DNA of 7,160 nt from a virus (IMGVR_UViG_2706794676_000001), one strand, 5' to 3'. Numbered from the stretch's first letter, positions 1 to 7,160 are shown. Notes: a model not told the origin generated them from the sequence alone. Numbers and translations are program-made.

Positions 1-98
1 AGGGACAGCTGATAGAAACAGAAGCCACTGGAGCACCTCAAAAACACCATCATACACTAAATCAGTAAGTTGGCAGCATCACCTCATTCGTCTGTTCC

Positions 99-545
99 TT
101 AAATCTTCCAGGAAATTTCTGCATTGCCGTCAGCATCACCGGCACCTGTGAATTCAGCGTTGGTCAGCACCACGTTTTTGCCACTGACTGACGTGGACAT
201 GAATCCACCCAGCGGCACTTTGATGGATTCATCAGTGGAGACGACAACGTATACCGGATGCTTCATGGCGTCGCCCGGGAAGTTCTTGCCTGTTCCCACC
301 TGGCGAACCATGTCCGGCTGCGACGTGGTCGGATAAGGGCGCACGTAGATCCCCTTCACCTTGTCTGCGGTATCACCATCTGCCAGCGGCACGAAAAAAC
401 CGTCATCATCGTATTTACCAGCCAGGCCATAGGCAGCGAAGGCGTTATCGGATTTAAGGACCACCGGTTCGACGGTTAAGTCCTGCGGGCGAGAGACAGC
501 CCCGGCAATGCCAACAGGCATCCGGTACAGAAATACATTATTCAT
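99..545 (-). CDS. Phage head-module protein of unknown function (148 aa), possibly a capsid-associated or decoration protein
   Basis: Intact 148-codon ORF with ATG at 545-543 and TAA at 101-99. A Shine-Dalgarno-like AAGGG lies 6 nt upstream, inside the 3' end of the preceding gene, which stops only 3 nt before this start. Same strand and tight spacing as the head genes upstream. No recognisable catalytic motif; function inferred from position only. Confidence 0.6.
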   Translation of the reverse strand: MNNVFLYRMPVGIAGAVSRPQDLTVEPVVLKSDNAFAAYGLAGKYDDDGFFVPLADGDTADKVKGIYVRPYPTTSQPDMVRQVGTGKNFPGDAMKHPVYVVVSTDESIKVPLGGFMSTSVSGKNVVLTNAEFTGAGDADGNAEISWKI

Positions 546-548
546 TTT

Positions 549-1769
549 TTACCCTTTACGGTTTGCCCAGAATTCAGCGTTTTGTTTGTTCAGGGAAGCG
601 ATACTGGTCATGCCCATGTTTAGGCGCTGTGCATCGCCGGTGGTGGCGCGGGTGTTTCGCCCTTTGGCAACCTCAGACACGGCATTAAACGCCATGTCGA
701 CCGATTGTTTCGGTAATTTGCGGATATCCGCATCACCGACTATCTGGCGAACCAGCGTTTTGTCAGCAGAAGCCAGAACCTCGCGTTTGAACGCGGTCGG
801 TTTCATCTTACGGCTCAGATCGATACCCGGAACGATAACTTCGGCACGCCAGGCTGAGTCACCAGTAATCGTGGTTTCCTCTTCATCGTCCTCGCCGTCA
901 CCGGTCGGATTATCGTCAGGCTTATTATCGTTATCGCCCGTGGCATTTCTTTCCAGCTTAGCCAGCAGGGCTTTCAGTAATGTTTTGAGGTCATCATCAC
1001 TGTCGCCGGTTGGATCTCCGCCCATCTCTGGTGCTTTGTCCGGTAGTGGTTGCTGCGGGGACAGGTTGATGTTGAGATTAACGCCCTGCGGCAAATCCCC
1101 CTCATCTCCTGTAACCGATGCGGGAGCCGACTCCACCAGTTCGTTCATGGTGTCGGCATCTCCTGTCTTGATGGCCGCACGCATGCGGTTCCACCAGTTT
1201 TTCTTTTGATTTGCCATTGTGTCTCTGTCTCCAATTGCACAACGATTTCCGGCTCTGCCTTTAGGGACAAGAGCCACATGGTTTCCGGTAATATCGACCT
1301 GCTCGGCTTTACCTGGCTCGGTCTGCTCGTACTCCGCGTCATAGCCGCACGACACTTCGCGCAGGCCATCTTCGATAAGCTGAATGGCGCTTTCGTCTTT
1401 GACGATAAGGTCAGCCAGCATCAAATCAGACTGCTCACCCGTCCCGCGCCGGACATTCTGGAGGTGCCCGACAGCAAGCTCTTTCCAGTTCTCGGGATTT
1501 ACCAGCCGCACATTCCCGTTTTCATCTTCAGGATGCAGGATCGTGATGCTCATCCCTTCGAATGAGGCAAGCGTGGCCGGATGGAATACCTGCTCAGGAG
1601 AACGCGTGACGACTATTTCACCGAACTTATCGGGTTTCAGTTTTGGCAGGTCATCAGCACCATAGAGCTGCTTACCTGTTCGTCCTATCGGCACGTCTTT
1701 GCACAGCAACGAGCCGTCAGCCAGGCGGTATCGGGTTTCCCCGAGCCTGGTCTCAAAAAAGTATTTCAT
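549..1769 (-). CDS. Phage head-assembly protein (406 aa): N-terminal globular domain, long acidic Asp/Gly/Glu-rich linker, C-terminal domain; putative scaffold or protease-scaffold fusion, possibly DUF2213-like
   Basis: Intact ORF with ATG at 1769-1767 and TAA at 551-549, starting 3 nt after the Mu F-like gene stop. Residues about 201-305 are low-complexity and acidic (TGDEGD...DSDDD...GDNDNKPDDNPTGDGEDDEEE), typical of scaffolding proteins. Sits between the head morphogenesis gene and the downstream capsid genes. Family name is from memory, not a search. Confidence 0.7.
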   Translation of the reverse strand: MKYFFETRLGETRYRLADGSLLCKDVPIGRTGKQLYGADDLPKLKPDKFGEIVVTRSPEQVFHPATLASFEGMSITILHPEDENGNVRLVNPENWKELAVGHLQNVRRGTGEQSDLMLADLIVKDESAIQLIEDGLREVSCGYDAEYEQTEPGKAEQVDITGNHVALVPKGRAGNRCAIGDRDTMANQKKNWWNRMRAAIKTGDADTMNELVESAPASVTGDEGDLPQGVNLNINLSPQQPLPDKAPEMGGDPTGDSDDDLKTLLKALLAKLERNATGDNDNKPDDNPTGDGEDDEEETTITGDSAWRAEVIVPGIDLSRKMKPTAFKREVLASADKTLVRQIVGDADIRKLPKQSVDMAFNAVSEVAKGRNTRATTGDAQRLNMGMTSIASLNKQNAEFWANRKG

Positions 1770-1772
1770 GGG

Positions 1773-2555
1773 TTATGCTGCCCTTTTCATTGCGAATGGA
1801 ACGCGAACAAACACGATCTCTTTATAGCAGCGGCAGTTTGGCAGCTCGCCCGCGTGGCCGGTCATGCCGTCCAAAGTTGGAGGTGAATCCCAGCGGACGA
1901 ATTTACCTTTCATGTGATCGTGGGAATCTCGGACATCGCCATCATCGGCTGTACGCCAAATATAACCATCCGAGCCAATAGCTATCGCTCGGGCCATATC
2001 CAGCGCGCCCGTTGCTCTTCCCAGTTCCGTTCGGGCAATCAGATCGGCCCTAGACTTAGCAACATCGCCGGTAGATGCAATCTCTTTAGCAAACTGCTCC
2101 GCCCGACCACCGGTGACAACAGCCTCTATCGCTTTGTTCTGGATGTCGTACACCCTGTCTGCGGCCTCGAGAGGCAGAGATTTGATGTACTTGACCTGTT
2201 CGGCGATGATGGATTGCATCACCTGGCCCACAGGAGCGCTTTCCACAAGATTGCGGAGCTCGCGACTGATGTTCTTGCTGTGTTGCCGCCAAACTTTCTC
2301 GTTCTGCCGGGTTAGGTCCGCAGTAAAGTTTTCCGCGACCTTTGTCGCCCAGGGGGTGATGATTTCACTGTAACGCTCCAGCGCCGCAATAATTTCCGTG
2401 ATACTGTCATTTGAACCATCGTAGCGACCATTTACGATGTCTCCGACCGCCCTCGCTATCCTGCGTAGGCTGGTTCGATACCGGATTTCCGCCTGACGGC
2501 TCCTGCGGTTCGTCATCAGGTTCGCCGATGCCGGGCGGCGCTTCATCTTCGGCAT
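1773..2555 (-). CDS. Phage head morphogenesis protein, Mu F / SPP1 gp7 family (260 aa)
   Basis: Intact ORF with ATG at 2555-2553 preceded by GAGGA 8 nt upstream, and TAA at 1775-1773. The C-terminal half carries the family's hallmark residues (ARTELGRA, W-x-TADDGDVRDSHD, LDG, then PNCRCY). Position directly after the portal gene is canonical for this family. Confidence 0.85.
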   Translation of the reverse strand: MPKMKRRPASANLMTNRRSRQAEIRYRTSLRRIARAVGDIVNGRYDGSNDSITEIIAALERYSEIITPWATKVAENFTADLTRQNEKVWRQHSKNISRELRNLVESAPVGQVMQSIIAEQVKYIKSLPLEAADRVYDIQNKAIEAVVTGGRAEQFAKEIASTGDVAKSRADLIARTELGRATGALDMARAIAIGSDGYIWRTADDGDVRDSHDHMKGKFVRWDSPPTLDGMTGHAGELPNCRCYKEIVFVRVPFAMKRAA

Positions 2556-3489
2556 TCTCGATGTCCTCGTCGGTAATGGATGCCCCGATGCCGGTTACGT
2601 CAGAATTTTCTCGCAAATCAGTCATAGCGGCTTTCAGTGTCATCAGACCATCACCCAGCGCCGTACTGATTGCGTTGGTGGTGTTTAACGCCACCGTTGA
2701 GCGATCGACATCAGACATTTGCCAGAGCGGGTTAAACTCAAACGTGAAATCGTCCGGCAGCGGCTTGCCAAGTTCCGAACGATGCATGATGTCCAGTATC
2801 CGCCGCACCGGAAGACGTAAACGCCTCTCCTGCAACGAACTGATGCGATCGTAATAGTTGGCAAGGTCTGCATCACCGGTAGAAAATCCTTTCGGGGACT
2901 GTCCGAACAACCGCACCAGTGGGATACCAACAGCGCCACTAATCTGTTCTACAAACTGCGAAAGGATGTCATCCAGACCACTGAAGCTGTACTGATGGGT
3001 TTCAAACTTATCCCGCGAGTCCATGAGCGTCATGCCTTCATTACTCTGGAACTGTCGAATCAGGTCGATATTCTTCAGCAACGCTTCATACGCAGGACCA
3101 CCAAGTGCGATAAGCTCGCGTAGCTTCTCCACGCTGTAGGTACGCAAATGCGCCTTGTAGACCAGCTGCGCCGCGCCGACAGTAGCGCTGTCGAACGCGG
3201 TAAGACGATCCCAGATACGCTCTACAACCGACATTCCCCATTCGTTCTCGGTCATCTTCTGCTGAAATGGCAACGTGACGCCATCAAAGCGAATCAGGCG
3301 ACTGTGATGAATGCGCCAGGCAGGAATTCCCGTTGCTGTGGTCACCACATCGTAAAACTCAGGTTTACCCAGGTCCGGCCCCATATCTTTAATGCGGCGG
3401 GTCAGTGCCGGGTCGACCATCCAGCGGTCGAGCGGGAGAATCCCCTTAAACTTGCCCTTACCGATGGTTTCGGGTCGCAGCGGGGTCAT
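2407..3489 (-). CDS. Portal protein, largest uninterrupted segment (360 codons) of the portal reading frame
   Basis: ORF with ATG at 3489-3487 preceded by GAGGGG about 9 nt upstream, and TGA at 2409-2407. Acidic C-terminal tail and position between large terminase and Mu F-like gene fit a portal. This start is in frame with an upstream ATG at 3873; see the pseudogene feature covering 2407-3873. Confidence 0.7.
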   Translation of the reverse strand: MTPLRPETIGKGKFKGILPLDRWMVDPALTRRIKDMGPDLGKPEFYDVVTTATGIPAWRIHHSRLIRFDGVTLPFQQKMTENEWGMSVVERIWDRLTAFDSATVGAAQLVYKAHLRTYSVEKLRELIALGGPAYEALLKNIDLIRQFQSNEGMTLMDSRDKFETHQYSFSGLDDILSQFVEQISGAVGIPLVRLFGQSPKGFSTGDADLANYYDRISSLQERRLRLPVRRILDIMHRSELGKPLPDDFTFEFNPLWQMSDVDRSTVALNTTNAISTALGDGLMTLKAAMTDLRENSDVTGIGASITDEDIENAEDEAPPGIGEPDDEPQEPSGGNPVSNQPTQDSEGGRRHRKWSLRWFK

Positions 3490-3873
3490 TGGTGCCTACC
3501 CCTCAATCATGATGAAACCCACCGCGCCGCCGTAGAGGCGCGACCATTTCAGCACGTCATTCAGCGCATCCCAGATTTGCAACTCATCCAGTTGTGATTC
3601 GAGAATGCCACGATCTTTTGCATCAATTTCCGAAGTGATGCGAATGCCTTTGCGGGTCATATCATCCGGGATAGCATCGACTGCTTCGCCGATGATCTAG
3701 GATGAACGATAGGACCATTCCACCAGCATGCGGTTACGACTGGTGAAATTAGCCCGGTAGGTGGATGCTGAGTGCTGGTTAGGTGTCTGCATCCCTACGC
3801 GGGCAATAAAATTCTCATAACCATCAGCTGTGGCCTGCACAGTTCGCCGCAGGGCTTGTTTGTTTCGTGCCAT
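2407..3873 (-). pseudogene. Full-length portal gene frame (about 488 codons) interrupted by two in-frame amber (TAG) codons; either a nonsense-disrupted portal or one needing amber suppression
   Basis: Read directly from the sequence. ATG at 3873-3871 overlaps the large terminase TGA stop (ATGA coupling) and has GGGGAGA about 8 nt upstream. The frame then reads 58 codons (MARNKQALRRTVQATADGYENFIARVGMQTPNQHSASTYRANFTSRNRMLVEWSYRSS), TAG at 3699-3697, 66 codons (IIGEAVDAIPDDMTRKGIRITSEIDAKDRGILESQLDELQIWDALNDVLKWSRLYGGAVGFIMIEG), TAG at 3498-3496, Ala-Pro, then the ATG of the 360-codon ORF. 3873 and 3489 are exactly 384 nt (128 codons) apart. The total length matches typical portal proteins. 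Confidence 0.55.
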
Positions 3874-5303
3874 CAGGCCTGTCTCCCCAGCTGTTCCCAG
3901 ATATCCAGCGATGTATCGATTGGCGCGAAGGCCATAATGAATGCATCAGCAACGTTTGGTGACGGTATCTCGCGTTTTGCGAGGTCTTTTTTACTTTCGA
4001 CCATCACACGTCCGTTACGGTCGAAATCACGATGAGGTGTTGTCAGTTCCAGTTTCAGCTTTTCAAGCAACGGACAACGAGAATCTATGCTGATCAGCTC
4101 ATCCACAGGATACTGTTCTCCGTTGTTAATGGCGTTAAACGTATTTCTGAAACGGTCAGCCACCAGCCACCATGCCTGAGCCTTAAGATTTGCGAAAAAG
4201 TCTTTGTTGGGGATGCCGTTGTACTCGTCATCTGGCTCATGCACACCAGCACCGGCGTTAAACCTCTGGTAATTCACACGTCGCGCGTATGCGTTCTCGC
4301 TCTTCCGGTCAGCGTTAATTTCAGAGAATTTAGCACCGGCAGACGCACCAACACCGATAGAGTCGTAAACAATATCTGCTTCACGCTCCAGCGCCGCCTG
4401 ATAAGTACGCTGGCAGCTCTTCAGTAATTCATCTTCTTTGGCCTTCCATTCGTCGGCCCAGAAAACAACGGATCCGTGACGGTAAACGTTAGCGCACTTA
4501 TCTGTACCACTGTCAGCCACGTCAAAGCCAATACGCTTTCTTCCACTGGGTTCGAAATTTAACGTTTTGTGCGCATCCACTGCGGCTTCTATCCAAGACA
4601 GTTTGATGATTGCCGCATCATCATCAGACTCCGGAACGCCCTCATACACATGTTTAAAACCATCCGGATCACGGCGTCGCGCCGCGTCGATAACCTTAAG
4701 CATGGTGTCAGACAGAAACGGATTTTCGTCATAGTTAATTTTGCGGATGAGAGTGCCTTCGGGCGGATCAACAACGAAGTTGCGCCAGACGAAATCAGTA
4801 ACAAGTCCGGGGTTGAATATGAACCAGCATTCCGAACCCTCTTTACGGATCGTTGGCTCCAGAATTTTCCACTGGTATTCCGTCAGTGCGTGGGCTTCTT
4901 CCAGCCACAACACATCGATCCCCTCCAGTGACTTAATTTCTTCGATGTTGCGCCATAATCCATAAAAAACAAATTCCGAGCCAGTAACCCGGTTAATGAT
5001 TTTGTTGTTCAGAATACGGAAACGGTGCCGCAGACCAAACCTGTCTATCTGAATTTTGAGCAGGGTATACACCGACTCTTCGATTTTATTCTGGATCTGA
5101 CGGGCACAACAAAAACGCAGGGTGTATTTATTCGACAGAAATATGGCAATGCCAGCGGCATCCCATGATTTTGACGATGACCGACCACCATAAAGCACTT
5201 TGTTACGTGCCCGCATAGTCCAGAAACTACGTAAAGCCGGATTCAGCGTCGGTTTGGATGTCAGAGTAGAAGTCATTGAGGTCACGCTCTCCATTGCCAT
5301 CAT
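3873..5303 (-). CDS. terL: Terminase large subunit (PBSX/Terminase_6-like ATPase-nuclease)
   Basis: Long intact ORF ending at TGA 3875-3873. Contains the N-terminal LNPALRSFW motif followed by a Walker A / P-loop (VLYGGRSSSKSW), a Walker B-like hydrophobic stretch ending in acidic residues (IDVLWLEEAH), and a C-terminal nuclease-like region. The longest ORF begins at 5384 with a non-ATG start; ATG codons at 5303, 5300, 5294 and 5276 are more likely starts (AGGT lies 4-5 nt before 5303). Exact start is uncertain, and any of them overlaps the small terminase 3' end. Confidence 0.9.
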   Translation of the reverse strand: MMAMESVTSMTSTLTSKPTLNPALRSFWTMRARNKVLYGGRSSSKSWDAAGIAIFLSNKYTLRFCCARQIQNKIEESVYTLLKIQIDRFGLRHRFRILNNKIINRVTGSEFVFYGLWRNIEEIKSLEGIDVLWLEEAHALTEYQWKILEPTIRKEGSECWFIFNPGLVTDFVWRNFVVDPPEGTLIRKINYDENPFLSDTMLKVIDAARRRDPDGFKHVYEGVPESDDDAAIIKLSWIEAAVDAHKTLNFEPSGRKRIGFDVADSGTDKCANVYRHGSVVFWADEWKAKEDELLKSCQRTYQAALEREADIVYDSIGVGASAGAKFSEINADRKSENAYARRVNYQRFNAGAGVHEPDDEYNGIPNKDFFANLKAQAWWLVADRFRNTFNAINNGEQYPVDELISIDSRCPLLEKLKLELTTPHRDFDRNGRVMVESKKDLAKREIPSPNVADAFIMAFAPIDTSLDIWEQLGRQA

Positions 5304-5991
5304 CAATACCTGCATCACGGCGAAGACGATCAGCCTCCAGAGACACCTTATCAGTGGCGGCCTTGCGGTAGGCTGTATCAGCAAATATTTTTCCTACCGT
5401 CGCAAGCGTGCCAACGATGGACTCAATACGAACTGTATTGCGCATCATTGCTTTCTCGGCGGCGCTGATATTTTCAATCAGCATCTTCCTTTCCTGGTCC
5501 CCATTAGCATCTTCCAGCGACACCAACCACCGACCAATATTCTCTGCAGCGACAAGGTTGTTAGCACGAAGGCGAAATAATTCGTCCTCGAGCGTCAACG
5601 CTTTAGCGTCCTCTATCACCTCATCTTTGAGCAGAAGGCGACGGGCATAACCACCGTGTTTTAATGCCTGCTGGTTACCGGGTTGGAATGGGTTAGTCGG
5701 GGGATCGGTACGCATTCCGCGTATCGGTTTCGTATCCGGTGTAGATTCTGTTTTTAGTTGCGTACTTTTTTGTGTAAGGCCAGTAATGGCAGGCTTTCTG
5801 CTGGTACGCACTTTCCTTTTTTGCGTACCATTTTTGCAAACCTGCGTACCGCCACTGCGTGCCCAACCAAGCTTTTTGGCCCTCTTCCTGATAGCCCCTT
5901 CTGTAACGCCGTATTTCTCGCCTATATCACGGAGGCTAAGGACTCCGGCCCGGTATGCCGATTCGATGGCCTCCCAGTCCGGTTTTGCCAT
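5227..5991 (-). CDS. terS: Terminase small subunit (254 aa) with N-terminal helix-turn-helix DNA-binding domain
   Basis: Intact ORF with ATG at 5991-5989 preceded by AGGAAG 7 nt upstream, and TAG at 5229-5227. N-terminus (SLRDIGEKYGVTEGAIRKRAKKLGW) is a classic HTH as in small terminases, followed by a basic linker and a conserved PGNQQALKHGGYAR motif. Lies immediately upstream of, and overlapping, the large terminase. Confidence 0.8.
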   Translation of the reverse strand: MAKPDWEAIESAYRAGVLSLRDIGEKYGVTEGAIRKRAKKLGWARSGGTQVCKNGTQKRKVRTSRKPAITGLTQKSTQLKTESTPDTKPIRGMRTDPPTNPFQPGNQQALKHGGYARRLLLKDEVIEDAKALTLEDELFRLRANNLVAAENIGRWLVSLEDANGDQERKMLIENISAAEKAMMRNTVRIESIVGTLATVGKIFADTAYRKAATDKVSLEADRLRRDAGIDDGNGERDLNDFYSDIQTDAESGFT

Positions 5992-6101: not shown

Positions 6102-6188
6102 TACCTTGTAAATGTAAGGTGTTTAAGCCTAAATTAAGTCGTATCACGGTTAAATAGCAAAGAAAAATTCACAGAAGGAAAGACATTG

Positions 6189-6698
6189 ATGGAGTGGATA
6201 AATGCTTTGATGAACTATTTTGTACTTCATCCATATCGCCTATGGGGGCTTCTTTTTATAATAGCGTTCACAAAATCCACTTTACTCATTTCGGCGATAT
6301 TGCCACCAGCATCAATTATGATGGCCACTGTAATTACAGTCAGCAAGACGACTCTTTCACCATGGGAAGCTGGAATCACGGTCATGAGTGGCGCATGGTG
6401 CGGTACTATCGTTAATTACCATCTTGGTATAATAATTGGGCATATCCCTCAACTTGCATGTATAATATCAAGCCGTTCCAATACAATAGAACGGGTTCGC
6501 CTTCAGTTGCAAAATAACTCTGTGTCAATACTTTTCACTTCGCGCTTTATCGCCGTGCTGCGTTATATTGCTCCTTTGGTGGCAGGAATGTTGCAACTTC
6601 ATCCAGTGAAAGTGTATACAGTGAGTCTGATTTCAGCTGCTAGCTGGTCAGCACTTTATGTTGGTAGTTTTAGCTTCGTGTTGCCTTTTTTTAGCTAA
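6189..6698 (+). CDS. Small polytopic inner-membrane protein (about 169 aa, four predicted TM helices), resembling DedA/YqaA-type (SNARE-associated / VTT-domain) proteins; prophage moron
   Basis: ORF on the strand opposite all phage genes. ATG at 6189 is preceded by AAGGA 9 nt upstream; the track's 6186 start is a TTG one codon earlier. Stop is TAA at 6696-6698. Markedly AT-rich (a sampled 60-nt stretch is about 37% GC against about 60% in the flanking structural genes). Four hydrophobic segments with Gly-rich motifs (SGAWCGTIVNYHLGIIIG, RYIAPLVAG) recall YqaA/DedA proteins; this is recollection, not a search result. Confidence 0.65.
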   Translation: MEWINALMNYFVLHPYRLWGLLFIIAFTKSTLLISAILPPASIMMATVITVSKTTLSPWEAGITVMSGAWCGTIVNYHLGIIIGHIPQLACIISSRSNTIERVRLQLQNNSVSILFTSRFIAVLRYIAPLVAGMLQLHPVKVYTVSLISAASWSALYVGSFSFVLPFFS

Positions 6699-6786: not shown

Positions 6787-7160
6787 CTACCCCCCAAGGC
6801 ATTGGATCCTGATGTACTCCTGAAGCATTCTCAATGCTGTCTGGTCGCTGATGATTCCGTCCCGGATACCGAGAACGTTTCGTCCAGCAACTGGAGAGAG
6901 TTCGACGGTGGCATCATTGCCCATGCCGGAGGCGCTGGAGGTTTCGGCTGAGGATGGCACAGGGCATTTTCCTTTGACGAGCACCCGACCACCATTATCA
7001 AGCTTGCGCCGAAGAGCATCATTTTCAGCTTTCGCATCAGCTAACTCCTTCGTGTATTTAGCATCGAGTGCATCAGCATCACGCTGGCGCTGCTGCATGT
7101 CAGTAATGGTTGCGTTCGCCAGCTTCAGTTCTCTTGCGTTTTTGTCGCGCTGCTCTTTGT
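6787..7160 (-). CDS. Rz: Rz-type i-spanin (inner-membrane spanin), 5'-partial; N-terminus lies beyond the window end
   Basis: Translation reads ...[51 protein letters not shown]..., a close match to my recollection of phage lambda Rz. The frame is open to the window edge at 7160. Stop is TAG at 6789-6787. Confidence 0.85.
6831..7037 (-). CDS. Rz1: Rz1-type o-spanin (outer-membrane lipoprotein spanin), nested in the +1 frame inside Rz
   Basis: 68-aa ORF with ATG at 7037-7035 preceded by a strong AAGGAG 7 nt upstream, and TGA at 6833-6831. Signal peptide with lipobox (LIMVVGC) followed by a proline-rich stretch ([11 protein letters not shown]), as in lambda Rz1. Fully embedded within Rz. Confidence 0.85.

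What the first reader, a model, noticed from the sequence alone, without database searches (positions are those of the whole stretch)
3490..3873. Portal gene frame carries two in-frame amber (TAG) codons but is otherwise intact
The frame from the ATGA-coupled ATG at 3873 to the TGA at 2407 is about 488 codons, a typical portal length. It is open except for TAG at 3699-3697 and TAG at 3498-3496. There are no frameshifts, every other gene in the cluster is intact, and both lesions are the same stop codon. This fits a recently inactivated prophage, an amber-mutant phage that needs a suppressor host, or re-initiation at the 3489 ATG (which has its own GAGGGG site) giving an N-terminally truncated portal. 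It is not stop-codon recoding, because terS and Rz both terminate at TAG. An ORF-only annotation would miss this and report a short portal plus orphan small ORFs.
Basis: seen in the sequence. Interest (0 to 1): 0.75.

Follow-up and report, generated by a model that had tools for sequence, protein, structure and literature searches.

The report
Dead portal gene in Shigella prophage remnant
The two in-frame TAG stops are real, but they are ordinary point mutations that killed the portal gene of an already broken, IS-truncated prophage remnant carried by Shigella sonnei, so this is a routine pseudogene and not a special translation mechanism.

Summary
The minus-strand frame 3873→2407 has 488 codons and is open except for TAG at 3699-3697 (codon 59) and 3498-3496 (codon 126). 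It is a Phage_portal_3/DUF1073 portal gene (Pfam E=6e-104; PHROG portal E=1e-174; Pam3 portal 8hds E=6e-38).

The window is a complete 7160-bp contig of a draft Shigella sonnei assembly. It is otherwise identical to complete S. sonnei chromosomes. The nearest intact copy, in E. coli FDAARGOS_944, differs by 12 SNPs over 6.9 kb. That comparison shows the stops are TGG(Trp59)→TAG and CAG(Gln126)→TAG.

All intact homologues keep W59 and Q126, including the plaque-forming phage SEN34. Neither amber occurs in any of 5,426 complete E. coli genomes. Among the matching IMG/VR contigs, the only four that carry them are 100% identical to S. sonnei.

In S. sonnei the prophage is wrecked. An IS3-family element sits in the holin gene. 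IS1 follows directly after the cement gene, and chromosomal genes come next, so there are no capsid or tail genes. S. dysenteriae lost the same gene independently, through an IS1 cut.

Verdict: an ordinary lineage-specific pseudogene, already present in public genomes. Suppressor dependence, functional re-initiation, recoding and sequencing error are all unsupported. Interest is low.

The parts
2407..3873 (-). Portal (Phage_portal_3 / DUF1073 / HI1409 family) pseudogene: 488 codons plus TGA, interrupted by two TAG codons
   Evidence: PF06381, 348 bits, residues 55-402; Pam3 portal 8hds, E=6e-38, query 15-413; TIGR01555; phrog_146 portal, E=1e-174; 99% identical to the intact 488-aa E. coli protein
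3697..3699 (-). Amber 1: codon 59, TGG (Trp) to TAG, a G-to-A change at base 3698 on the gene strand
   Evidence: against L001. W59 is present in all 5 intact homologues aligned and is conserved in the Pam3 portal. The allele is TGG in 47 IMG/VR contigs and TAG in 4. No exact 61-mer among 142 matching E. coli genomes
3496..3498 (-). Amber 2: codon 126, CAG (Gln) to TAG, a C-to-T change at base 3498 on the gene strand
   Evidence: Q126 is present in all 5 intact homologues aligned and aligns with Q in Pam3. The allele is CAG in 128 IMG/VR contigs and TAG in 4. No exact 61-mer among 273 matching E. coli genomes
2950..2952 (-). Third S. sonnei-specific change in the gene: codon 308, GCA to GTA (A308V). 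All 5 intact homologues aligned carry Ala here
   Evidence: (36 of 36 non-sonnei copies carry C)
3697..3873 (-). Fragment ORF 1 (58 aa plus TAG): the N-terminal portal piece. Its start overlaps the terL stop as TGATG
   Evidence: named 'putative bacteriophage protein [Shigella sonnei]'
3496..3660 (-). Fragment ORF 2 (54 aa plus TAG): portal residues 72-125
   Evidence: It equals phrog_28295
2407..3489 (-). Fragment ORF 3 (360 aa plus TGA): portal residues 129-488. It starts at the ancestral Met129, with GAGGGG (3499-3504) 9 nt upstream
   Evidence: Q3Z426_SHISS. The GAGGGG..ATG stretch is identical in the intact copies
3873..5276 (-). Terminase large subunit (PBSX family), 467 aa, intact, ends in TGA
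5227..5991 (-). Terminase small subunit, 254 aa, intact, ends in TAG
   Evidence: phrog_370, E=7.5e-95
6787..7160 (-). 3' part of the Rz-type lysis gene, cut by the contig end, ends in TAG
1773..2516 (-). Mu F-like head morphogenesis gene (247 aa at its longest start), overlapping the portal 3' end
549..1769 (-). DUF2213 / Pa193_gp24-type head gene, 406 aa
99..545 (-). Cement (Gp24-like) gene: 148 aa here against 168 aa in every other copy, because of a 60-bp in-frame gap at 259|260
1..83 (.). Left end of IS1. This is the junction where the rest of the prophage (capsid and tail genes) has been lost
   Evidence: the sequence continues into InsA in L003. (IS1 followed by pgl-like lactonase and LysR genes)

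Best explanation
This is a portal-protein pseudogene in a cryptic SEN34-like (Brunovirus-type) prophage remnant in the Shigella sonnei chromosome. Two independent G:C-to-A:T point mutations turned Trp59 (TGG) and Gln126 (CAG) into amber codons in the S. sonnei lineage. A third lineage-specific change, A308V, hits a residue that is Ala in all five intact homologues aligned. The element had lost, or was losing, all phage function through IS insertions and an IS1-bounded deletion of the capsid and tail genes. Nothing selected against the stops, and they spread with the S. sonnei clone. Translation ends at the first TAG. The downstream ORFs are leftovers, not products of a designed re-initiation. 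Shown: the mutations, their direction, their restriction to S. sonnei, and the degraded context. Inferred: that no functional product is made, and the order of events (probably A308V, then Q126*, then W59*).
For: The gene is a portal. The window is a whole contig of S. sonnei assembly GCA_001257855.1 and is 100% identical to complete S. sonnei chromosomes apart from one 60-bp gap. The nearest intact copy (E. coli FDAARGOS_944, WP_000113499.1, 488 aa) differs by 12 SNPs in 6901 bp, including TGG→TAG and CAG→TAG. Using over 100 related copies as outgroup, only four changes are S. sonnei-specific: 6470 (synonymous), 3698, 3498 and 2951. All four are G:C→A:T transitions. Intact 487-488-aa homologues with W59, Q126 and A308 occur in 338 E. 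coli genomes and in the isolated phages SEN34, vB_EcoM-606R2 and Omnitron. SEN34 is a plaque-forming temperate myovirus (PMC5261728). Among intact homologues the gene is under purifying selection, with 149 synonymous against 43 non-synonymous codon differences to SEN34. On the S. sonnei branch the count is 0 synonymous, 1 missense and 2 nonsense. The ambers are absent from all 5,426 complete E. coli genomes. In IMG/VR they occur only on 4 contigs, always together, and those contigs are 100% identical to S. sonnei. In S. sonnei an IS3-family element lies in the holin gene, further IS3- and IS110-family copies lie upstream, and IS1 sits 15 bp after the cement gene, followed by chromosomal lactonase and LysR genes. 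Major capsid, adaptor, tail and tape-measure genes are all missing (compare 32). S. dysenteriae Sd197 carries the same remnant with Q126 intact but with the portal cut by IS1 near codon 103 and with extra missense changes, which is independent decay. TAG is a working terminator here, since terS and Rz end in it, and the window holds no tRNA gene.
Against: Two nonsense changes among only three lineage-specific substitutions in the gene is more than neutral expectation: P is about 0.01 for at least 2 of 3 G:C→A:T transitions being nonsense. Three of the four lineage-specific changes in 6.9 kb fall in the portal. Both figures are post hoc, computed on a finding that was selected for its stops, but they leave some room for selection in favour of inactivation. 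Neighbouring genes (terS, terL, Mu F, DUF2213) still have open frames, so decay is not uniform. No expression data were available, so a residual role for the 360-aa fragment is not formally excluded.
Confidence: 0.93

Rival explanations
1. Translation re-initiates at the ATG at 3489, helped by the GAGGGG 9 nt upstream. This yields a 360-aa N-terminally truncated portal that is retained because it does something, for example interfering with portal-ring assembly of superinfecting SEN34-like phages.
For: A 360-aa ORF with a plausible Shine-Dalgarno-like sequence exists and is identical across very many S. sonnei assemblies. The upstream terS and terL frames are still open.
Against: The GAGGGG..ATG stretch is ancestral coding sequence for conserved residues E124-G125 and M129, and it is identical in 128 intact copies. 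It is therefore not an evolved start site. The missing 128 residues are conserved in all homologues and align to the solved Pam3 portal from residue 15. The retained part carries A308V, where all five intact homologues aligned have Ala. Identity across S. sonnei is expected for a very young clone (own knowledge) and says nothing about selection. The S. dysenteriae counterpart of the same fragment has 4 further missense changes, at least 3 of them at residues invariant in functional homologues. No capsid or tail genes remain for a portal to work with.
Confidence: 0.04
2. This is a conditional-lethal amber-mutant phage that is viable only in a host carrying an amber suppressor tRNA such as supE or supF.
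For: Both lesions are TAG in an essential virion gene. A Gln-inserting suppressor would restore Q126 exactly.
Against: There is no viable phage genome to rescue. The holin is split by an IS element, and the capsid, tail and other late genes are deleted at an IS1 junction. The alleles are those of natural clinical S. sonnei chromosomes, not of a laboratory stock. The window holds no tRNA. Two genes in the same window rely on TAG for termination. No phage record carries either amber.
Confidence: 0.01
3. The stops are sequencing or assembly errors in a draft genome.
For: The window is a short contig from a draft short-read assembly, and it carries one oddity, the 60-bp gap, seen in no other assembly.
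Against: Both TAGs are present in every S. sonnei locus examined. These include 10 loci from nearly or fully assembled chromosomes of different projects, such as 53G (HE616528.1), CP022457.1 and CP044191.1. The fragment proteins occur on at least 1000 contigs.
Confidence: 0.005
4. Loss of the portal was positively selected. Knocking out the portal was advantageous, for instance by preventing lethal packaging or lysis by a still-inducible prophage, which would explain two nonsense hits in one gene.
For: Nonsense changes are in excess (P about 0.01), and 3 of the 4 lineage-specific changes cluster in the portal. Exact look-ups suggest stepwise intermediates: an intact V308 form on 1 contig, and a 125-aa W59...G125 fragment on 3 contigs.
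Against: One stop suffices to inactivate the gene, so selection cannot explain the second. The statistics are post hoc on 3-4 events. The intermediates sit on a handful of short Logan contigs that could not be inspected and may be chimeric assemblies.
Confidence: 0.02

Closest known systems
Portal protein of Salmonella phage SEN34 (Brunovirus SEN34, ALF02478.1) and of induced E. coli prophages vB_EcoM-606R2, -689R2, -611R5 and -683R1
   Same: The gene sits in the same position directly after terL and has the same 488-codon length. Identity is 85% (SEN34) to 98% (vB_EcoM) at nucleotide level and 91-98% at amino-acid level. The following genes come in the same order: Mu F-like, DUF2213, cement.
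   Different: Those genes are uninterrupted and carry W59, Q126 and A308. They belong to complete phage genomes with capsid and tail genes. The window copy has two TAGs, plus A308V, and sits in a truncated remnant.
Intact prophage copy in E. coli FDAARGOS_944, FDAARGOS_943 and VL40 (WP_000113499.1)
   Same: 99.8% identical over 6.9 kb, with the same Rz, DedA, terS and PBSX-type terL module.
   Different: The portal is intact, and the capsid gene (DUF2184) and later genes are present downstream instead of IS1.
Solved portal structures of the same superfamily (cyanophage Pam3 portal 8hds; Pseudomonas phage E217 gp19, 8fvh)
   Same: Sequence homology spans residues 15-413 of the restored protein (E=6e-38 for 8hds). 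W59 and Q126 align to W and Q in Pam3.
   Different: These are distant relatives. The comparison serves only to show that the N-terminal 128 residues belong to the conserved portal fold.
IS-driven genome decay and pseudogene accumulation in Shigella (for example PMC8072062)
   Same: A host-restricted lineage with many IS copies, gene loss at IS junctions, and point-mutation pseudogenes. The S. dysenteriae copy of this same gene is cut by IS1.
   Different: Nothing differs in kind. This is one more instance.
Classical amber (suppressor-sensitive) mutants of phage head genes
   Same: TAG nonsense codons in an essential morphogenesis gene, arising by G:C→A:T transitions.
   Different: Classical mutants sit in otherwise complete phages propagated on suppressor hosts. 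Here the element cannot form particles, and it is a natural chromosomal allele.

Membership tests
Phage portal protein, Pfam PF06381 (Phage_portal_3 / DUF1073; TIGR01555 HI1409 family) | Matches the family profile above the curated cut-off | tested here: met
   Read-through protein: 348 bits against a cut-off of 33.8, residues 55-402. Restored protein: TIGR01555, 255 bits against 196. phrog_146 portal, E=1e-174
Phage portal protein, Pfam PF06381 (Phage_portal_3 / DUF1073; TIGR01555 HI1409 family) | Sits immediately downstream of the large terminase in a head-morphogenesis module | tested here: met
   The terL stop overlaps the portal start (TGATG at 3871-3875). Mu F-like, DUF2213 and cement genes follow
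Phage portal protein, Pfam PF06381 (Phage_portal_3 / DUF1073; TIGR01555 HI1409 family) | Sequence homology to experimentally solved dodecameric portals | tested here: met
   8hds E=6e-38, 9jlf E=4.5e-23, 8fvh E=9e-15
Phage portal protein, Pfam PF06381 (Phage_portal_3 / DUF1073; TIGR01555 HI1409 family) | Uninterrupted full-length reading frame, that is, a functional member | tested here: not met
   Two internal TAG codons at codons 59 and 126. It is a member by descent only, as a pseudogene
Bacterial pseudogene in a cryptic (defective) prophage | Disrupted relative to intact orthologues, with the disruption derived in this lineage | tested here: met
   TGG→TAG and CAG→TAG against 47 and 128 intact copies. 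Absent from 5,426 E. coli genomes
Bacterial pseudogene in a cryptic (defective) prophage | The surrounding element lacks genes essential for particle formation | tested here: met
   IS in the holin gene. IS1 after the cement gene, followed by chromosomal genes. No capsid or tail genes (compared with SEN34)
Bacterial pseudogene in a cryptic (defective) prophage | Relaxed selection on the lineage | tested here: inconclusive
   0 synonymous, 1 missense and 2 nonsense changes on the S. sonnei branch, against 149 synonymous and 43 non-synonymous differences to SEN34. The direction is as expected, but there are only 3 events
Suppressor-dependent amber-mutant phage | An otherwise complete, inducible phage genome | tested here: not met
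Suppressor-dependent amber-mutant phage | A host or phage amber suppressor tRNA | not testable with these tools
   The window holds no tRNA. The whole S. sonnei genome could not be scanned here
Stop-codon (TAG) recoding in phages | In-frame TAG in many genes, and TAG not used as a terminator | tested here: not met
   Only the portal has in-frame TAGs. terS and Rz terminate at TAG. The homologues encode W and Q at those codons with ordinary TGG and CAG

The most novel reading that the evidence does not exclude
The portal was knocked out in steps (A308V, then Q126*, then W59*). The surviving 360-aa C-terminal fragment, translated from the ancestral Met129 behind a fortuitous GAGGGG, is expressed. 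It acts as a dominant-negative portal subunit that protects S. sonnei from superinfection by SEN34-like phages. That would make it a prophage-remnant defence built from a broken structural gene.
Probability: 0.03. Interest if true: 0.5.

Novelty: already known. Interest (0 to 1): 0.08.

Why it matters
It matters little biologically. It is one more point-mutation pseudogene in an IS-ravaged prophage remnant of a lineage known for genome decay. It has been in public S. sonnei genomes for years, first as three small 'putative bacteriophage protein' ORFs and later, most likely, as a pseudogene.

Its practical value is as an annotation lesson. The orphan fragments have spread into protein databases. 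UniRef entries exist for the 58-, 54- and 360-aa pieces. At least one PHROG family of 'unknown function', phrog_28295, appears to be nothing more than the 54-aa middle fragment of this dead gene. Prophage and portal surveys that count ORFs will miscount this locus.

Tried and rejected
(1) Sequencing error was rejected. Both stops are in every S. sonnei locus fetched, and the fragments occur on at least 1000 contigs.

(2) Stop-codon recoding was rejected. TAG terminates terS and Rz, and homologues use TGG and CAG at the two sites.

(3) A phage-borne suppressor tRNA was rejected. ARAGORN finds no tRNA in the window.

(4) I first suspected that S. dysenteriae shares amber 2, because Sd197 also has a 360-aa ORF starting at Met129. 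Its DNA (L118) disproved this. It has CAG at codon 126 and an IS1 end cutting the gene near codon 103.

(5) Circulating amber-mutant phages were rejected. All 4 amber-bearing IMG/VR contigs are 100% S. sonnei sequence, and no GenBank phage has the ambers.

The putative single-amber intermediates could therefore not be inspected.

(7) I did not run the large protein-database searches, structure prediction or fold search. Family membership was already unambiguous from Pfam, NCBIfam, PHROGs and PDB sequence hits.

Full report
**1. The observation**

On the minus strand, the frame from the ATG at 3873-3871 to the TGA at 2409-2407 is 488 codons long. It has exactly two internal stops, both TAG, at 3699-3697 (codon 59) and 3498-3496 (codon 126). 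The frame has 3 stops including its terminator. The other two frames of that strand have 21 and 35, and the opposite strand has 9-28. So it is a true, recently coding frame. One detail needs correcting. The terL stop and the portal start overlap as TGATG and share only base 3873. They do not overlap as ATGA. ORF listing breaks the frame into pieces of 58, 54 and 360 aa.

**2. What the gene is**

With the two stops masked, the protein matches:
- Pfam Phage_portal_3 (PF06381) at 348 bits, E=5.8e-104, residues 55-402.
- NCBIfam TIGR01555 (HI1409 family), above its cut-off.
- PHROG 146 'portal protein' at E=1.4e-174.
- Solved portals: cyanophage Pam3 (8hds) at E=5.8e-38 over query residues 15-413, and others.

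It lies directly after a PBSX-type large terminase. It precedes Mu F-like, DUF2213 and cement genes. The profile and structure matches span both stop positions.

**3. Where the window comes from**

An exact look-up of the 148-aa cement protein returns a single record. It is contig CWTQ01000178.1 (7160 bp) of assembly GCA_001257855.1, so the window is that whole contig. The window is 100% identical to several nearly or fully assembled S. sonnei chromosomes, such as 53G (HE616528.1) and CP022457.1. The one exception is a 60-bp gap at window 259|260. The three fragment proteins are named by their sources as Shigella sonnei proteins (for example Q3Z426_SHISS), and each is seen on at least 1000 contigs. 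The 360-aa piece is indexed in 2576 blocks of the collection. Sequencing error is therefore excluded.

**4. The ancestral state**

The closest intact copy is a prophage of E. coli FDAARGOS_944 (also FDAARGOS_943 and VL40). It differs from the window by 12 substitutions in 6901 bp, and its portal is an annotated, uninterrupted 488-aa protein (WP_000113499.1). Codon by codon, the two stops are TGG(Trp59)→TAG and CAG(Gln126)→TAG.

More than 100 related copies from IMG/VR and E. coli were used to polarise the 12 differences. Only four are specific to S. sonnei:
- 6470, synonymous, in the DedA-like gene.
- 3698, giving W59*.
- 3498, giving Q126*.
- 2951, giving A308V.

All four are G:C→A:T transitions. 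W59, Q126 and A308 are present in all five intact homologues aligned. These include the isolated phages SEN34, vB_EcoM-606R2 and Omnitron. W59 and Q126 also align to W and Q in the distant Pam3 portal. SEN34 was isolated from plaques as a temperate myovirus (PMC5261728), so the intact form of this gene works in a real phage.

**5. How widespread the ambers are**

61-mers centred on each amber find 142 and 273 E. coli genomes respectively. Every best hit has one mismatch, so none of the 5,426 complete E. coli genomes carries either amber. In IMG/VR, site 1 is TGG in 47 contigs and TAG in 4. Site 2 is CAG in 128 contigs and TAG in 4. The same four contigs carry both ambers, and they are 100% identical to the S. 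sonnei sequence. No GenBank phage has either amber.

S. dysenteriae Sd197 also has a 360-aa ORF starting at Met129, which at first suggested a shared stop. Its DNA (L118) shows CAG at codon 126 and an IS1 end cutting the gene near codon 103. It also has four further missense changes, at least three of them at residues invariant among functional homologues. That is an independent inactivation of the same gene in another Shigella lineage.

**6. Genomic context**

Longer S. sonnei loci show the following:
- The holin gene is split by an IS3-family element.
- More IS3-family and IS110-family copies lie further upstream, among remnants of the immunity and late-control regions.
- IS1 begins 15 bp after the cement gene (window 1-83 is its left end).
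- After IS1 come chromosomal genes: a lactonase, a LysR regulator, another IS1, and an aconitase-family gene.

SEN34 and the intact E. coli prophage continue at that point with the major capsid gene (DUF2184), adaptor, tail and tape-measure genes. All of these are missing in S. sonnei. The element cannot make particles whether or not the portal is intact. In two complete, recently annotated genomes no protein is called across the portal interval. This most likely means it is flagged as a pseudogene, which is my inference. Older annotations list the three fragments as separate proteins.

**7. Mechanism and rivals**

The best-supported reading is plain pseudogenisation by two spontaneous transitions in a gene no longer under selection. 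Among intact homologues the gene is strongly constrained, with 149 synonymous against 43 non-synonymous codon differences to SEN34. The S. sonnei branch has 0 synonymous, 1 missense and 2 nonsense changes.

The re-initiation idea is weak for four reasons:
- The GAGGGG (3504-3499) and the ATG (3489-3487) are ancestral codons for E124-G125 and M129. They are identical in 128 intact copies.
- The lost 128 residues are part of the conserved portal.
- The retained part carries A308V.
- There is no capsid to assemble on.

The suppressor-host idea fails because there is no viable phage, because TAG terminates terS and Rz in the same window, and because the window holds no tRNA. From general knowledge, basal read-through of UAG in E. 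coli is about 1e-3 to 1e-2 per codon. Two stops in series would therefore give negligible full-length product.

One point stays mildly odd. Two of the three lineage-specific changes in the gene are nonsense. The expected nonsense fraction among G:C→A:T transitions in this gene is 6.2%, giving P of about 0.011 for at least 2 of 3. Three of the four lineage-specific changes in the contig also fall in the portal. With so few events, and a finding chosen because of its stops, I treat this as chance. Selection for inactivation could explain one stop at most.

Exact look-ups hint at intermediates:
- An intact 488-aa protein carrying V308, on one Logan contig.
- A 125-aa product with W59 that ends after G125, on three Logan contigs.
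- No product corresponding to amber 1 alone on the V308 background.

This suggests the order A308V, then Q126*, then W59*. These contigs could not be fetched and may be artefacts.

**8. Comparison with what is known, and novelty**

By descent, the gene belongs to the DUF1073/HI1409 portal family of SEN34-like (Brunovirus-type) temperate phages. Functionally it fails the one criterion that matters, an intact frame. The situation is typical of Shigella genome decay, in which IS expansion and pseudogene accumulation are well documented (for example PMC8072062). Nothing here is new in kind, and the locus has long been in public records.

The only wider point concerns database hygiene. PHROGs contains a 54-position 'unknown function' family (phrog_28295) that matches residues 72-125 end to end, which is exactly the middle pseudogene fragment. 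It also contains other families corresponding to portal pieces.

**9. Verdict**

Novelty: already known. Interest is low.

Noticed in passing
window 259|260 (inside the cement gene, 99-545, minus strand): The window lacks 60 bp, in frame, that are present in every other S. sonnei locus and in E. coli L001. This shortens the cement protein from 168 to 148 aa. The 148-aa form exists on this one contig only. The junction has a 3-nt GCG microhomology. Whether this is a real strain-specific deletion or an assembly artefact is unresolved.
   Followed up: partly
window 1-83: The left end of IS1 begins 15 bp after the cement gene stop. The contig ends inside it. In complete genomes IS1 is followed by chromosomal lactonase and LysR genes, which marks the deletion of the capsid and tail region.
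   Followed up: yes
window 6186-6698 (+): A DedA/VTT-domain membrane protein gene (170 aa, TTG start) lies antisense between Rz and terS. This is moron-like cargo, also present in the intact E. coli prophage.
   Followed up: no
window about 3873-3926 and upstream; L002 and L155: The packaging module is mosaic. Homology to the A34 and vB_EcoM-606R2-type prophages begins about 53 nt before the portal start. Upstream they carry a different terS (190 aa) and TerL (540 aa), where the window has a 254-aa terS and a 467-aa PBSX-type TerL. This suggests a recombination junction at the 3' end of terL.
   Followed up: partly
window 3496-3660 (fragment ORF 2) and PHROGs v4: phrog_28295 ('unknown function', 54 positions) matches portal residues 72-125 end to end, which is exactly the middle pseudogene fragment. 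phrog_12751 and phrog_15615 also correspond to pieces of this portal. Pseudogene or partial ORFs appear to have seeded database families.
   Followed up: partly
E. coli homologues (for example H44 in NZ_CP029371.1; P0034, P0036): Some RefSeq records name intact homologues 'anti-CBASS protein Acb1 family protein'. Pfam, NCBIfam, PHROG and PDB matches all say portal instead, so this is probably a misleading propagated name.
   Followed up: partly
L118 (IMGVR_UViG_2609459817_000001, S. dysenteriae Sd197-type copy), gene-strand start: The same portal gene is cut by an IS1 end near codon 103, with Q126 intact. The remaining 360 aa carry four extra missense changes (W186R, P318L, P-to-L at 459, R477W). 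This is independent decay of the same remnant in another Shigella lineage.
   Followed up: yes
window 6787-7160 (Rz-type lysis gene): Four of the 12 differences from the E. coli FDAARGOS_944 copy cluster in about 90 bp of Rz: A60D, A73A, N74D and W91R. All four sites are polymorphic among related prophages, so this looks like a small recombination patch and not new mutation.
   Followed up: partly
window 1773-2516 against 2407-2516: The longest Mu F-like ORF (247 aa) overlaps the last 110 nt of the portal in another frame. Several annotations instead start it downstream (152 aa), and in SEN34 the gene starts after the portal stop. The true start is uncertain.
   Followed up: no
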